This document shows positions 21,527-56,016 of a stretch of 64,000 nt of DNA, piece by piece (the stretch's first letter is position 1; the number at the start of each line of letters is the position of its first letter). Location: assembly GCF_003790525.1 (NCBI RefSeq), contig NZ_CP033635.1; one strand, 5' to 3'. The notes beneath the pieces were generated by a model. It had not been told where the DNA came from. It saw only the letters and a program-made list of their open reading frames with translations, and made no database searches. The translations under genes were made by a program, and so were the position numbers. The stretch comes from Escherichia coli. GTDB lineage: Bacteria; Pseudomonadota; Gammaproteobacteria; Enterobacterales; Enterobacteriaceae.

Positions 21527-22696
21527 TTAGCTGTTGGCAACGCAAACTGTTTCAGGTTGTTTTCTGGCTGACATAAACACCAGTAATAATGCCAGTCCCG
21601 CGACAATCGCCCCCATCACCGGCACAAAACTGTATCCCAGCCCAGCGGAAATTACCGCACCACCAGCAGCTGCTCCCAGCGCATTTCCAAGATTAAAGGC
21701 ACCAATATTGACTGATGAAGACAGACCTGGCGCTTCACTGGCGACACGCATCACGCGCATCTGTAACGGCGGTACGACCGCAAAGGTTGCAGCGCCCCAC
21801 ACCACCATGCTAATAGCTGCGCCGAACTCATTGCGGGCCAGGAACGGGATTGCCAGCATAATCACCATCAGCAGCAACAAAAAGCCTTTCAACGTGCCGT
21901 TAACTGAACGATCTGCCAGTTTGCCGCCGAGATAGTTACCGATAGAGAATCCGACACCAATCAGCACCAGCATTGCCGTAACGAACACCGGTGTTGCGTG
22001 GGTAATACTTTGCAGTACCGGAGAGATATAGGTGTAGAGGGTAAACATTGCACCAGCTCCCAGTACCGTCGTCAGCAATGCAGACAGCACCTGCGGACGC
22101 ATTAATACCGCCAGCTCTTTTTTCACTTCAGGTCGCGCCCCTGCGCCACCTTTAGGTAATGAGAAGAACAGACTTACCATTGAAATCACTCCCAGCCCCG
22201 CCGTTGCCAGAAATGACATCCGCCAGCCGATGGTTTCACCCAACCAGGTCGCCGCCGGCACGCCACCGATATTTGCCAGGGTTAACCCCATAAACATAGT
22301 GGCAACTGCGCTGGCCTGTTTATGTTTTGGCACCACGCTTGCGGCCACAACTGAACCCAAACCAAAAAATGCTCCGTGATTCAGGCTGGTCAAAATGCGT
22401 GAAAGCATCAGAGTCATATAATCCGGCGCGATGGCGGAAAGTACGTTGCCGAGCGTGAAAATCGCCATCAGGAAAATCAACGCACTGCGGCGAGCACGAT
22501 GAGAAAGTAGAAGCGTCATCAGCGGCGCGCCAACCATTACGCCAACTGCATAGGCACTGATTAACATTCCGGCAGCGGGAATCGAGACATCCACACCGCG
22601 CGCAATGACGGGCAATAAGCCCATTGGCGAGAACTCCGTTGTCCCGATACCAAACGCGCCAATCGCCAGCGCCAGCAACGGATAGTTAATTTTCAT
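21527..22696 (-). CDS. ydhP: MFS transporter
   Basis: 389 aa 12-TM-like ORF MKINYPLLALAIGAFGIGTTEFSPMGLLPVIA... recognised as YdhP. Confidence 0.9.
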   Translation of the reverse strand: MKINYPLLALAIGAFGIGTTEFSPMGLLPVIARGVDVSIPAAGMLISAYAVGVMVGAPLMTLLLSHRARRSALIFLMAIFTLGNVLSAIAPDYMTLMLSRILTSLNHGAFFGLGSVVAASVVPKHKQASAVATMFMGLTLANIGGVPAATWLGETIGWRMSFLATAGLGVISMVSLFFSLPKGGAGARPEVKKELAVLMRPQVLSALLTTVLGAGAMFTLYTYISPVLQSITHATPVFVTAMLVLIGVGFSIGNYLGGKLADRSVNGTLKGFLLLLMVIMLAIPFLARNEFGAAISMVVWGAATFAVVPPLQMRVMRVASEAPGLSSSVNIGAFNLGNALGAAAGGAVISAGLGYSFVPVMGAIVAGLALLLVFMSARKQPETVCVANS

Positions 22697-22861
22697 GCCT
22701 TATCTCCACCTCTTCGCGTCATTACGCGGTATTCATTAAAGTGGCGAAAGCATGACAGCAATCACAAAAAAATGAAAATAACAAAAAGAGAAAACACTTT
22801 TGCCATTTTGCTAACAAACAGGAAGGAGATGCGAGGGAGAACGCGCTCCCTCGAGAGGAAA

Positions 22862-22951
22862 TCAGTGCAGCGCGGCAGTCAAACCCACGGCCACGATCAA
22901 ACCGAGGACGATAATCGTTGTTACCAGTGAAAATTTAAGGTCGGTGCTCAT
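22862..22951 (-). CDS. ynhF: 29-aa small membrane protein
   Basis: ATG 22951 with AAGGAG RBS 7 nt upstream; translation MSTDLKFSLVTTIIVLGLIVAVGLTAALH, stop TGA 22862..22864; below the ORF-track size cut-off; matches the YnhF I recall; hairpin 22832..22853 follows. Confidence 0.7.
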   Translation of the reverse strand: MSTDLKFSLVTTIIVLGLIVAVGLTAALH

Positions 22952-23189
22952 CAAGTTTTCTCCTTTTTTATTACCACACAAAAAGTGATATTACGCATTT
23001 TTACACACTGTGATGAAAAAATCTCCCGTCATTTATAATGATAAGTGTTTTTACCACTTCCCCTTTTCGTCAAGATCGGCCAAAATTCCACGCTTACACT
23101 ATTTGCGTACTGGCCATTGACCCCTTCCTGACGCTCCGTGTCGTTTTTCCGGCGTACCGCAACACTTTTGTTGTGCGTAAGGTGTGTAA

Positions 23190-23205
23190 AGGCAAACGTT
23201 TACCT
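23190..23205. promoter_or_regulatory. PurR operator O1 (AGGCAAACGTTTACCT)
   Basis: 16-bp match to pur-box core GCAAACGTTT, 45 bp upstream of purR ATG. Confidence 0.6.
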
Positions 23206-23249
23206 TGCGATTTTGCAGGAGCTGAAGTTAGGGTCTGGAGTGAAATGGA

Positions 23250-24275
23250 ATGGCAACAATAAAAGATGTAGCGAAACGAGCAAACGTTTCCACTACAACT
23301 GTGTCACACGTGATCAACAAAACACGTTTCGTCGCTGAAGAAACGCGCAACGCCGTGTGGGCAGCGATTAAAGAATTACACTACTCCCCTAGCGCGGTGG
23401 CGCGTAGCCTGAAGGTTAACCACACCAAGTCTATCGGTTTGCTGGCGACCAGCAGCGAAGCGGCCTATTTTGCCGAGATCATTGAAGCGGTTGAAAAAAA
23501 TTGCTTCCAGAAAGGTTACACCCTGATTCTGGGCAATGCGTGGAACAATCTTGAGAAACAGCGGGCTTATCTGTCGATGATGGCGCAAAAACGCGTCGAT
23601 GGTCTGCTGGTGATGTGTTCTGAGTACCCAGAGCCGTTGCTGGCGATGCTGGAAGAGTATCGCCATATCCCAATGGTGGTGATGGACTGGGGTGAAGCAA
23701 AAGCTGACTTCACCGATGCGGTCATTGATAACGCGTTCGAAGGCGGCTACATGGCCGGGCGTTATCTGATAGAACGCGGTCACCGCGAAATCGGCGTTAT
23801 CCCTGGCCCGCTGGAACGTAACACCGGCGCAGGCCGCCTTGCCGGTTTTATGAAGGCGATGGAAGAAGCGATGATCAAAGTGCCGGAAAGCTGGATTGTA
23901 CAGGGTGACTTTGAACCTGAATCCGGTTATCGCGCCATGCAGCAAATACTGTCGCAACCGCATCGCCCTACTGCCGTCTTCTGTGGTGGCGATATCATGG
24001 CAATGGGCGCACTTTGTGCTGCTGATGAAATGGGTCTGCGCGTGCCGCAGGATGTTTCGCTGATCGGTTATGATAACGTGCGCAACGCCCGCTATTTTAC
24101 GCCAGCGCTGACCACGATCCATCAGCCAAAAGATTCGCTGGGCGAAACGGCGTTCAACATGCTGTTGGATCGTATCGTCAATAAACGCGAAGAACCGCAA
24201 TCCATTGAAGTGCATCCGCGGTTGATTGAACGCCGCTCCGTGGCTGACGGCCCGTTCCGCGACTATCGTCGTTAA
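23250..24275 (+). CDS. purR: purine repressor (LacI family)
   Basis: 341 aa [36 protein letters not shown]... recognised as PurR. Confidence 0.96.
23278..23293. promoter_or_regulatory. PurR operator O2 (GAGCAAACGTTTCCAC) inside purR codons 10-15
   Basis: second pur-box core GCAAACGTTT within the purR coding start, consistent with known purR autoregulation. Confidence 0.6.
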
Positions 24276-31840: not shown

Positions 31841-31917
31841 GCGTTCATAGCTCAGTTGGTTAGAGCACCACCTTGACATGGTGGGGGTCGTTGGTTCGAG
31901 TCCAATTGAACGCACCA
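31841..31917 (+). tRNA. valV: tRNA-Val (anticodon GAC)
   Basis: 77-nt cloverleaf: GCGTTCATAGCTCAGTTGGTTAGAGC D-arm, anticodon loop CTTGACAT, GGTTCGAGTCC T-arm, encoded CCA. Confidence 0.95.
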
Positions 31918-31921
31918 TCCT

Positions 31922-31998
31922 GCGTCCGTAGCTCAGTTGGTTAGAGCACCACCTTGACATGGTGGGGGTCGGTGGTTCGAGTCCACTCGGACGCACCA
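31922..31998 (+). tRNA. valW: tRNA-Val (anticodon GAC)
   Basis: second 77-nt copy 4 nt after the first (GCGTCCGTAGCTCAGTTGGTTAGAGC...ACGCACCA); weak hairpin plus T-run follows at about 31995..32030. Confidence 0.95.
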
Positions 31999-32106
31999 GA
32001 TTTTCTTAATCTGGTCTTCTCCTTTTTTCCCTCTGTTTCTTCTCTGTATCCAATACGTTAAAAGATTTACACTGTCTTCGTATGCGTTATCAGTAGGAGA
32101 ATCGCT

Positions 32107-32412
32107 ATGGCAACTTTGTTACAACTTCATTTTTCTTTCAATGGCCCATTTGGCGACGCAATGGCTGAGCAGCTTAAACCTCTTGCTGAGTCGATTAATC
32201 AGGAACCTGGTTTTCTGTGGAAGGTATGGACAGAAAGTGAAAAGAACCACGAAGCCGGTGGGATCTACCTTTTTACTGATGAAAAAAGCGCCCTTGCCTA
32301 TCTGGAAAAACATACTGCCCGACTGAAAAATCTCGGCGTTGAGGAAGTTGTCGCCAAAGTTTTCGATGTCAATGAGCCACTGAGTCAAATCAATCAGGCA
32401 AAACTCGCCTGA
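32107..32412 (+). CDS. ydhR: putative monooxygenase, small ABM-like protein
   Basis: 101 aa [32 protein letters not shown]... recognised as YdhR. Confidence 0.88.
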
Positions 32413-50079: not shown

Positions 50080-50110
50080 CCCTTAAGTCTGTGCGACACA
50101 GGCTTAAGGG
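50080..50110 (-). terminator. long hairpin with minus-strand U-tract; possible 3-prime end of sRNA RydB or other minus-strand transcript
   Basis: cccttaag(tctgtg-cga-cacagg)cttaaggg; on the minus strand the stem is followed by TTTTCTTATTTCT. Confidence 0.45.
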
Positions 50111-50335
50111 TTTCTACCCCATCCGGCGCTTATCTCCGGCACTCTCAGTGGCTTAGCTCTTGAAGGGGCGATAAGAATAATCTCATAAAGCTAACCCGCC
50201 GTTTTAACACAAACTGCGATTAGTATTATTTTTGAACAATATCAGGCGGGTAGATAAGCAGTATTAAGAAGGCCATCGAACCTGGACGGAGATTAATCCA
50301 GGTCGATATGGCGAACTTGCGGCATTAAGTCAGGA

Positions 50336-55617: not shown

Positions 55618-55774
55618 TGTTAACCCCTGCTAATTGATATTTGCTTGCTCTTCCCCATATTTTCCTGCTTACCGCCATTCAGCTGGTAGTACCTGTCGCA
55701 AATTCTTTACAGTTTTTAAACTAATGAGACGAATCTGATCGACGCAAAAAGTCCGTATGCCTACTATTAGCTCA

Positions 55775-55880
55775 CGGTTATAAATCAACATATTGATTTA
55801 TAAGCATGGAAATCCCCTGAGTGAAACAACGAATTGCTGTGTGTAGTCTTTGCCCATCTCCCACGATGGGCTTTTTTTTA
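55775..55880 (+). ncRNA. rprA: RprA small regulatory RNA
   Basis: ACGGTTATAAATCAACATATTGATTTATAAGCATGGAAATCCCCTGAGTGAAACAACGAATTGCTGTGTGTAGTCTTTGCCCATCTCCCACGATGGGC + T8 matches the RprA sequence I recall. Confidence 0.9.
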
Positions 55881-56016
55881 ACATTTTTCCGCTTCGCCAC
55901 CTCGCCCCTCACGCTTTCCAATAATGTTGCACAAGATACTGTGACTCTCTTCAAGCCGTCAGCAGGCTGATAATGTTATTTATATTTTATTGTTTATTTC
56001 ATGCAGCCATTACACG

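What the first reader, a model, noticed from the sequence alone, without database searches (positions are those of the whole stretch)
22832..22951. Unlisted 29-codon membrane-protein gene (ynhF) with strong RBS between ydhP and purR
ATG at 22951 (minus strand) is preceded by AAGGAG at ideal spacing and encodes MSTDLKFSLVTTIIVLGLIVAVGLTAALH, a single-TM micro-protein below the 60-aa ORF-track threshold. A GC hairpin (22832..22853) follows the stop. Small proteins of this kind are easy to miss.
Basis: partly seen in the sequence, partly recalled or inferred. Interest (0 to 1): 0.35.

Follow-up and report, generated by a model that had tools for sequence, protein, structure and literature searches.

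The report
Known cytochrome bd-I small subunit CydH
The 29-codon gene is real, but it is the already characterised E. coli gene ynhF, now called cydH or cydY, whose one-helix protein is a structurally solved fourth subunit of the cytochrome bd-I respiratory oxidase, so the finding is correct but ordinary.

Summary
On the minus strand there is an ATG at 22951, an AAGGAG 8 nt upstream, 29 codons (MSTDLKFSLVTTIIVLGLIVAVGLTAALH), a TGA at 22864-22862, and an 8-bp GC-rich hairpin at 22853-22832.

The gene is not new. RefSeq annotates it as cydH, "cytochrome bd-I accessory subunit CydH". It passes the NCBIfam equivalog NF033411, and it is identical to chain H of PDB 6RKO and seven newer bd-I entries.

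- I selected loci by the neighbouring gene purR. All 86 Enterobacterales loci with enough flank carry the ORF divergent from purR, and none of about 30 LacI-family control loci does.
- The ORF is 29 codons in 78 of 86, and a Shine-Dalgarno core is present in 86 of 86.
- dN/dS is 0.16-0.31 in the annotated frame, against 0.86 and 1.99 in the shifted frames.
- The 3' hairpin is conserved in position and shows compensatory changes. In E. coli it lacks a U-tract.

Side result: the Rfam "sRNA" family STnc550 matches 22859-23249 end to end and contains the whole cydH CDS. It is most simply the cydH mRNA. The transcript's 5' end and the strong conservation of the 298-nt cydH-purR spacer remain only partly explained.

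Novelty: already known. Interest: low.

The parts
22862..22951 (-). cydH (ynhF/cydY) coding sequence: 29 codons plus TGA, encoding MSTDLKFSLVTTIIVLGLIVAVGLTAALH
   Evidence: sequence. (RefSeq CDS cydH at the same coordinates). (identical to PDB 6rko chain H). (NF033411, 50.2 bits against a cutoff of 30). (dN/dS 0.16-0.31 only in this frame; 29 codons in 78 of 86 species).
22960..22965 (-). Shine-Dalgarno AAGGAG, 8 nt upstream of the ATG
   Evidence: anti-SD duplex -8.7 kcal/mol. (SD core in 86 of 86 loci; GGAG ends 5-9 nt before the start in 73 of 86).
22832..22853 (-). 3' hairpin CGAGGGAG/CGCGTT/CTCCCTCG starting 8 nt after the stop. Probably a transcript 3'-end, stabiliser or terminator element. 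No U-tract in E. coli.
   Evidence: -13.1 kcal/mol. (a hairpin at this position in nearly all 85 species; unrelated stems and canonical U-tailed terminators in Pantoea, Erwinia and Mixta). (8 consensus pairs, 5 with compensatory changes). (not called as a terminator).
22859..23249 (-). Full-length match to Rfam RF02081 'STnc550 sRNA'. This is the cydH CDS plus 298 nt upstream, reaching the base next to the purR ATG. I read it as a long form of the cydH mRNA.
   Evidence: 396 bits, model positions 1-388 of 388; the CDS aligns to unstructured model columns ~296-385.
22988..22993 (-). TAATAT, a candidate -10 hexamer of a proximal cydH promoter (inferred, not shown)
   Evidence: Sequence. The tiling-array paper PMC3009722 places the motif ATGACGGGAG... 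[quoted passage not shown] This is only a rough estimate. The hexamer is moderately conserved.
23190..23204 (+). PurR operator-like palindrome AGGCAAACGTTTACC in the purR 5' region. It belongs to purR, but it lies inside the STnc550/cydH long leader on the opposite strand.
   Evidence: sequence. (PMC5110547 lists this exact sequence as a bound site at ynhF/purR). (nearly invariant block). (it forms one of the Rfam model's 'helices').

Best explanation
Window 22862-22951 (minus strand) is cydH, formerly ynhF and also called cydY. It is a stand-alone small gene, divergent from purR and upstream of ydhP. It is translated from the ATG at 22951 using the AAGGAG Shine-Dalgarno, and it makes a 29-residue single-helix inner-membrane protein. 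That protein is the fourth subunit of the E. coli cytochrome bd-I quinol oxidase (CydA-CydB-CydX-CydH). [quoted passage not shown] There it shields heme b595 from the membrane and blocks the oxygen entry site used in the Geobacillus enzyme, so O2 reaches heme d through a separate hydrophobic channel. The GC hairpin just after the stop marks or stabilises the mRNA 3' end. What is shown: the gene is real, its start, frame and length are as stated, the protein is present in the purified enzyme, and I measured purifying selection here. What is inferred: the physiological consequence of shielding heme b595, the role of the hairpin, and the promoter and 5' end.
For: Identity. RefSeq annotates a CDS named cydH at exactly these coordinates, and the locus is present in 5425 of 5426 complete E. 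coli genomes. The peptide is 29/29 identical to PDB 6rko_H and to seven further bd-I entries. It passes the NCBIfam equivalog NF033411 'cytochrome bd-I oxidase subunit CydH' at 50.2 bits against a cutoff of 30.

Function and expression, from the literature. The subunit was seen in cryo-EM and identified by MS as YnhF. It is produced at low oxygen and retains its formyl-Met. The gene lies between ydhP and purR (PMC6853902). It binds between TM1 and TM9 of CydA and blocks O2 access to heme b595 (PMC8951039; PMC8585947; PMC12648545). New 2.4-2.6 Å structures again show the heterotetramer CydABXH (PMC13189123).

Evolution, measured here without ascertainment on the ORF. Among purR-anchored loci, 86 of 86 have the ORF and none of about 30 LacI-family controls does. 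It is 29 codons in 78 of 86, starts with ATG in 84 of 86, and has an SD core in 86 of 86. dN/dS is 0.163 overall (0.31 on unsaturated pairs), against 0.86 and 1.99 in the shifted frames. Entropy by codon position is 0.87/0.46/1.40. The upstream TTG extension is not conserved. The hairpin is conserved in position and covaries.
Against: Nothing contradicts the identification. The weak points are peripheral. The hairpin lacks a U-tract in E. coli and is not called by the terminator scan. No consensus sigma-70 promoter for the minus strand was found in 22600-23300. Reports of the 5' end disagree: about 36 nt upstream from a tiling array against about 298 nt from the Salmonella-derived Rfam model. 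I found no knockout phenotype in the papers I read, so the statement that it 'appears to be of functional importance' (PMC8951039) rests on structure. Pfam has no family for it.
Confidence: 0.97

Rival explanations
1. The transcript is primarily a regulatory RNA (STnc550), or a dual-function RNA. In this reading the long, highly conserved leader is antisense to the purR 5' UTR and promoter and acts on purR or on other targets, with the 29-codon ORF as a second function.
For: There is a full-length 396-bit match to the Rfam sRNA family RF02081 covering 22859-23249. The 298-nt spacer is conserved at 0.77-0.85 per column, against 0.60 at cydH third codon positions and 0.61 in the 3' flank. An RNase G study reports processing of the ynhF mRNA 5' leader (PMC4191395). 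A long transcript starting at 23249 would be fully complementary to the purR 5' UTR.
Against: The Rfam model contains the whole CDS as unstructured columns, and one of its helices is just the palindromic PurR operator DNA site. The leader folds no better than shuffles (z = -0.65). The spacer's conservation can be explained by the purR promoter, the purR 5' UTR and operator, and the cydH promoter on the two strands. E. coli tiling data suggest a short leader. No paper in the searchable library mentions STnc550. The coding function is proven.
Confidence: 0.08
2. The real product is the 39-residue protein that starts at TTG 22981 (MCGNKKGENLMSTDL...), which is how the mechanical ORF list reports it.
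For: the ORF listing gives 22862..22981, 39 aa, with a TTG start.
Against: The deposited chain and the MS-identified protein are 29 aa and start at fMet-Ser-Thr. The SD lies inside the putative extension. An in-frame stop occurs within 10 codons upstream in 48 of 85 species, and 34 of 85 have no upstream alternative start. The NCBIfam model is 29 positions long and matches 1-29.
Confidence: 0.01
3. The ORF is a chance open frame in an intergenic region, with a fortuitous SD-like purine run.
For: It is very short and has no Pfam family. Short hydrophobic ORFs arise easily in T-rich sequence.
Against: The ORF is conserved in 86 of 86 species with frame-specific purifying selection and a fixed length. 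The protein has been solved in a complex. The SD+ATG motif occurs only 5 times in 64 kb, and the other four all start real genes.
Confidence: 0.005

Closest known systems
CydH / CydY / YnhF, fourth subunit of E. coli cytochrome bd-I (PDB 6RKO chain H; NCBIfam NF033411; RefSeq WP_000102278.1)
   Same: Everything tested is the same: identical 29-aa sequence, the same genomic position between ydhP and purR, the same start and stop, and a single TM helix.
   Different: Nothing. This is that gene.
CydX / AppX / CydS, the other single-helix subunits of bd oxidases
   Same: They are micro-proteins of about 30-37 aa with one TM helix that bind CydA or AppC by hydrophobic contacts. Like CydH, they were long missed by annotation (PMC8951039; PMC12648545).
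   Different: They are encoded inside the cyd or app operon, bind the opposite face of CydA near heme b558, and are needed for assembly or stability. CydH is an orphan gene far from cydABX, binds TM1/TM9 next to heme b595, and is absent from bd-II and from the Geobacillus and mycobacterial enzymes. The CydH NCBIfam scan returned only NF033411.
Rfam RF02081 STnc550 (Enterobacterial sRNA candidate from Salmonella)
   Same: It covers the same DNA, window 22859-23249 on the minus strand, at 396 bits and full length.
   Different: It is filed as a non-coding sRNA, yet its last ~90 columns are the cydH CDS under protein-level selection. The family is better described as an mRNA, consisting of a leader plus a small ORF.

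Membership tests
CydH/YnhF (NCBIfam NF033411 equivalog) | Whole-protein score above the curated cutoff of the equivalog HMM | tested here: met
   50.2 bits against a cutoff of 30, E = 1.7e-13, aligned 1-29 of 29
CydH/YnhF | Sequence identity to the subunit seen in solved cytochrome bd-I structures | tested here: met
   29/29 identical to 6rko_H. The same sequence is in 8 entries and 12 chains.
CydH/YnhF | About 29 residues with a short polar N-terminus followed by one hydrophobic TM helix | tested here: met
   GRAVY is 1.63 overall and 2.45 for residues 7-28. The pattern M-x-T-D-L-K...T-T...L..I......A..H/N is conserved in 77 unique sequences.
CydH/YnhF | Orphan locus between ydhP and purR, outside the cydABX operon | tested here: met
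   Neighbours are ydhP (21527-22696, minus) and purR (23250-24275, plus). This is the same position the literature states. The ORF is divergent from purR in 86 of 86 Enterobacterales loci.
CydH/YnhF | Translated, and under selection as a protein | tested here: met
   Frame-specific dN/dS of 0.16-0.31, codon-position entropy of 0.87/0.46/1.40, and a fixed stop position. Translation itself is taken from the literature (MS, retained fMet, low-oxygen induction; PMC6853902).
CydH/YnhF | Physical association with CydA (TM1/TM9 cleft) in the bd-I complex | not testable with these tools
   Established experimentally for the identical sequence (PDB 6RKO and the 9RZV series). It cannot be re-derived from the DNA.
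CydH/YnhF | Co-occurrence with a long-Q-loop (L-subfamily) cydAB in the same genome | not tested
   cydABX is not in this window. The claim comes from the literature (PMC8951039).
Rfam STnc550 (non-coding sRNA) | Score above the gathering threshold | tested here: met
   396.1 bits against a gathering score of 48
Rfam STnc550 (non-coding sRNA) | Being non-coding, with a conserved RNA structure that explains the conservation | tested here: not met
   The model includes the protein-coding cydH ORF. The leader fold has z = -0.65. One model helix is the PurR operator palindrome.
Rho-independent (intrinsic) terminator | GC-rich stem-loop immediately followed by a U-run | tested here: inconclusive
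   The stem is present and conserved with covariation. In E. coli and most Enterobacteriaceae no U-tract follows, and the scan does not call it. Orthologous positions in Pantoea, Erwinia and Mixta do carry canonical U-tailed terminators.

The most novel reading that the evidence does not exclude
The long form of the cydH transcript (Rfam STnc550, 22859-23249) would start at or near the purR start codon. The candidate promoter is weak, TTGCTC-N16-TATTGT at 23283-23256 on the minus strand. It overlaps the PurR operator inside purR (AGCAAACGTTTCCAC, 23279-23293) and the equivalent of the Salmonella MarA/RamA marbox (23267-23281). Such an RNA would run antisense through the entire purR 5' UTR and promoter. 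It could act as a dual-function RNA that couples expression of purR, the purine repressor gene, to expression of a respiratory oxidase subunit, through transcriptional interference or antisense pairing. That would help explain why the 298-nt spacer is conserved as strongly as coding positions.
Probability: 0.08. Interest if true: 0.45.

Novelty: already known. Interest (0 to 1): 0.08.

Why it matters
As a discovery it does not matter. The gene has been known as a small membrane protein gene, ynhF. Since 2019 it has been known as subunit CydH/CydY of cytochrome bd-I, a respiratory oxidase studied as an antibacterial target, and it is annotated in RefSeq. The value of this result is as a positive control for the scan. 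A tool-less reader recovered a true 29-codon gene from SD spacing, hydrophobicity and a 3' hairpin. A neighbour-anchored comparison then recovers unmistakable coding selection even for 87 nt. The by-product is of modest curatorial interest: an Rfam 'sRNA' family is really this gene's mRNA.

Tried and rejected
- The search for homologous proteins and the search for related loci refuse a 29-aa query. The look-up of encoding contigs and the search of protein representatives need at least 30 aa, so I did not try them. Instead I scanned genome contigs with a degenerate DNA pattern for the PurR N-terminus. This also removed ascertainment bias on the small ORF.
- Pfam has no family for the peptide.
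- A literature search for 'STnc550' found nothing, and the supplement of PMC10268841 mentions neither ynhF nor STnc550.
- The 2010 stress-response small-protein paper was not available under the PMC id I recalled from memory. Its low-oxygen result is therefore cited only second-hand, through PMC6853902.
- The promoter scan found no consensus minus-strand promoter in 22600-23300.
- I considered the plus-strand 52-aa ORF 22772-22930, antisense to cydH, as a possible gene and rejected it. Its frame stays open in 75 of 77 species, but that is expected opposite a codon-biased TM helix, and there is no SD or other support.
- I considered the leader as a structured RNA and found no support (z = -0.65).
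- Structure prediction was not run because an experimental structure exists.

Full report
**1. Observation**

Reading the minus strand shows ...TAAAAAAGGAGAAAACTTG ATG AGC ACC GAC ... CTG CAC TGA.
- The ATG is at 22951.
- AAGGAG lies at 22965-22960, an 8-nt spacer from the ATG.
- There are 29 sense codons encoding MSTDLKFSLVTTIIVLGLIVAVGLTAALH, with TGA at 22864-22862.
- Eight nucleotides after the stop lies CGAGGGAG-CGCGTT-CTCCCTCG (22853-22832), an 8-bp stem of -13.1 kcal/mol.

The mechanical ORF list reports the same frame as a 39-aa ORF from TTG 22981. The flanking genes are a 389-aa MFS transporter (21527-22696, minus strand) and PurR (23250-24275, plus strand).

The SD/anti-SD duplex is -8.7 kcal/mol. 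AAGGAG-N5-10-ATG occurs only five times in the 64-kb window on both strands, and the other four all start real genes of 188-421 aa, among them sodB. The coordinates and the description are therefore correct.

**2. Identity**

A megablast of 22700-23260 against complete E. coli genomes hits 5425 of 5426 genomes. The listed records annotate "cydH: cytochrome bd-I accessory subunit CydH" under the match. In NC_010498 the CDS is at locus positions 2663-2752, which map exactly to window 22862-22951 (protein WP_000102278.1). The gene order is mepH, sodB, ydhP, cydH, purR, punR, punC.

The peptide is identical over 29/29 residues to PDB 6rko chain H, named [quoted passage not shown]. The same sequence appears in 8 entries, including the recent 9RZV/9SE4 series. 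It passes the NCBIfam equivalog NF033411 at 50.2 bits against a cutoff of 30. Pfam has no model for it.

**3. What it does (literature)**
- Thesseling et al. 2019 (PMC6853902) found an unexpected fourth, single-helix subunit of about 3 kDa in the E. coli bd oxidase cryo-EM map and identified it by MS as YnhF.
- The same paper notes that the protein is made at low oxygen and keeps its N-formyl-Met. It also notes that the gene is not in the cyd operon but lies between ydhP and purR. The authors named it CydY; Safarian et al. named it CydH.
- Reviews and later structures (PMC8951039; PMC8585947; PMC12648545; PMC13189123) agree on its position. It binds in a cleft between TM1 and TM9 of CydA, opposite CydX. 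It shields heme b595 and occupies the oxygen entry site of the Geobacillus enzyme, so O2 is routed through a separate channel to heme d.
- It is absent from bd-II and from the Geobacillus and mycobacterial enzymes.
- The structural placement is shown. The physiological importance is inferred from structure. I found no knockout phenotype in the texts I read.

**4.

The protein-based search tools refuse a 29-aa query. I therefore anchored on the neighbour instead, using a degenerate DNA pattern for the PurR N-terminus ([11 protein letters not shown]) scanned against one genome per species. This gave 120 loci. About 90 encode true PurR orthologues (77-100% identity). About 30 encode distant LacI-family proteins (25-44%), which serve as negative controls.

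Searching 900 nt upstream in all six frames gave these results:
- Every orthologue locus with enough flank (86 of 86) has a CydH-like ORF divergent from purR. The genera include Escherichia, Citrobacter, Enterobacter, Pluralibacter, Cedecea, Pantoea, Erwinia, Serratia, Yersinia, Pectobacterium, Dickeya, Edwardsiella, Hafnia, Proteus, Providencia and Xenorhabdus.
- No control locus scores above background.
- Six orthologue loci had too little flank to judge (L072, L082, L099, L111, L112, L115).
- The ORF is 29 codons in 78 loci and 27, 28 or 30 codons in the other 8. It starts with ATG in 84 and GTG in 2. A 4-mer SD core lies within 18 nt of the start in 86 of 86.

On 77 unique 29-codon sequences, Nei-Gojobori analysis gives:

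| Frame | pN/pS | dN/dS (JC-corrected) |
|---|---|---|
| Annotated | 0.37 | 0.163 (0.31 on pairs with unsaturated pS) |
| +1 | 0.91 | 0.86 |
| +2 | 1.67 | 1.99 |

Column entropy is 0.87, 0.46 and 1.40 bits at codon positions 1, 2 and 3. I19 is invariant. M1, L5, K6, T11, T12, L16 and A26 are nearly invariant.

The TTG-extended 39-aa form is not conserved. An in-frame stop lies within 10 codons upstream in 48 of 85 unique loci, and 34 have no upstream alternative start. Codon-level conservation is therefore unambiguous and specific to the 29-codon frame.

**5. The hairpin**

Folding the 70 nt after each orthologue's stop shows a stable stem-loop beginning 5-10 nt after the stop in almost every species. 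The stem differs between clades:
- GAGGGAG/CTCCCTC-type in most Enterobacteriaceae.
- GGGCCGC/GCGGCCC in Cedecea-like genomes.
- Unrelated stems with a clear U-tail, that is canonical intrinsic terminators, in Pantoea, Erwinia, Mixta and Acerihabitans.

On 35 alignable Enterobacteriaceae sequences, RNAalifold predicts the same 8 pairs, and 5 of them show compensatory double changes.

In this window the stem is followed by CATCTCCTTCCTGTTTGTT. The terminator scan does not call it, and the 71-nt region is not unusually stable (z = -0.76). I conclude it is a functional 3'-end element, either a terminator or a protective hairpin, but in E. coli it is not a textbook rho-independent terminator.

**6. 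An unexpected overlap with an "sRNA" family**

Rfam's RF02081 (STnc550, "Enterobacterial sRNA") matches 22859-23249 on the minus strand at 396 bits over its full 388 positions. The alignment shows the following:
- Model columns ~296-385 are the cydH CDS, all annotated as unpaired.
- The 5' end of the model abuts the purR ATG.
- One of the annotated helices is the palindromic PurR operator (AGGCAAACGTTTACC, plus strand 23190-23204). The GalR ChIP study lists this same site, together with a second site inside purR, GTGGAAACGTTTGCT, which is 23279-23293 on the other strand (PMC5110547).
- The 298-nt leader folds no better than shuffles (z = -0.65).

STnc550 is therefore most simply a long form of the cydH mRNA and not a non-coding RNA.

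**7. What stays open**

In 41 Enterobacteriaceae sequences the 298-nt cydH-purR spacer is conserved at 0.77-0.85 per column. That is as high as cydH codon positions 1 and 2 (0.88 and 0.93) and well above third positions (0.60) or the 3' flank (0.61). Much of this must belong to the purR promoter, 5' UTR and operator on the other strand, and to the cydH promoter.

The cydH 5' end is unsettled:
- A tiling-array study places its upstream 100-mer so that the transcript begins near 22987, just downstream of a TAATAT hexamer at 22993-22988 (PMC3009722; my arithmetic, rough).
- An RNase G study lists ynhF among mRNAs whose 5' leader is trimmed (PMC4191395).
- The Rfam model implies a start near 23249. 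There a weak TTGCTC-N16-TATTGT (23283-23256, minus strand; 7 of 12 consensus matches, below the scan's threshold) overlaps the PurR site inside purR and the equivalent of a Salmonella MarA/RamA marbox (PMC10268841).

If a long transcript exists, it is antisense to the whole purR 5' UTR. I rate a regulatory role for it as possible but unlikely, at about 0.08.

**8. Verdict**

The feature is the known gene cydH/ynhF/cydY, so novelty is "already known" and interest is low. The rest of the window fits an ordinary E. coli chromosome segment, with valV-valW tRNAs, rydB and RprA.

Noticed in passing
window 22859-23249 (-): Rfam family RF02081 'STnc550 sRNA' matches end to end (396 bits). It contains the entire cydH coding sequence as unstructured columns, and one of its helices is the PurR operator palindrome. 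The family looks like the cydH mRNA misfiled as a non-coding sRNA.
   Followed up: partly
window 22952-23249: The 298-nt cydH-purR spacer is conserved at 0.77-0.85 per column across 41 Enterobacteriaceae sequences. That is as high as non-synonymous coding positions and far above cydH third codon positions (0.60). The cydH-ATG to purR-ATG distance is held at 292-309 nt in Enterobacteriaceae. The purR promoter, UTR and operator explain only part of this.
   Followed up: partly
window 23256-23293 (-), inside the first purR codons: A weak promoter-like TTGCTC-N16-TATTGT would start transcription at ~23249, the 5' end of the STnc550 model. It overlaps the intragenic PurR/GalR-bound site (23279-23293) and the equivalent of the Salmonella MarA/RamA marbox (23267-23281). 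This is speculative, at 7 of 12 consensus matches.
   Followed up: no
window ~22980-22993 (-): A TAATAT -10-like hexamer (22993-22988) lies close to the E. coli ynhF transcript 5' end inferred from a tiling-array paper (~22987). This conflicts with the ~298-nt leader implied by the Salmonella-derived Rfam model, so there may be two promoters or 5' processing (RNase G is reported to act on ynhF mRNA).
   Followed up: partly
window 22780-22825 (-), between the cydH hairpin and ydhP: A motif of the form (G)ATTGTTA-N8-12-GCAAAAATCTTTTG(C) recurs 40-60 nt downstream of the cydH stop in many Enterobacteriaceae. Here it reads TTGTTAGCAAAATGGCAAAAGTGTTTT. It is probably part of the ydhP promoter or a regulator site. 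Its identity is unknown.
   Followed up: no
window 22772-22930 (+): A 52-aa ORF lies antisense to cydH, and the corresponding antisense frame is stop-free in 75 of 77 species. This is most likely a by-product of the codon composition of a TM helix on the other strand. There is no SD or other support.
   Followed up: partly
window 31841-31998 (+) and 31960-32123 (-): There are two tandem tRNA-Val(GAC) genes (valV/valW). An Rfam hit to 'HPnc0260 bacterial antisense RNA' (106.6 bits) on the opposite strand overlaps the second tRNA. It is probably a tRNA-driven match.
   Followed up: no
window 50109-50169 (-) and 55774-55881 (+): The known sRNAs rydB (81.6 bits) and RprA (118.5 bits) are present at full length, as expected for this E. 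coli chromosome region.
   Followed up: no
L015 (Pantoea stewartii), 3' flank of cydH: Immediately downstream of the cydH stop there is a tandem array of GGCTGACT repeats (…CTGGCTGACTGGCTGACTGGCTGACTGG…) instead of the usual hairpin.
   Followed up: no
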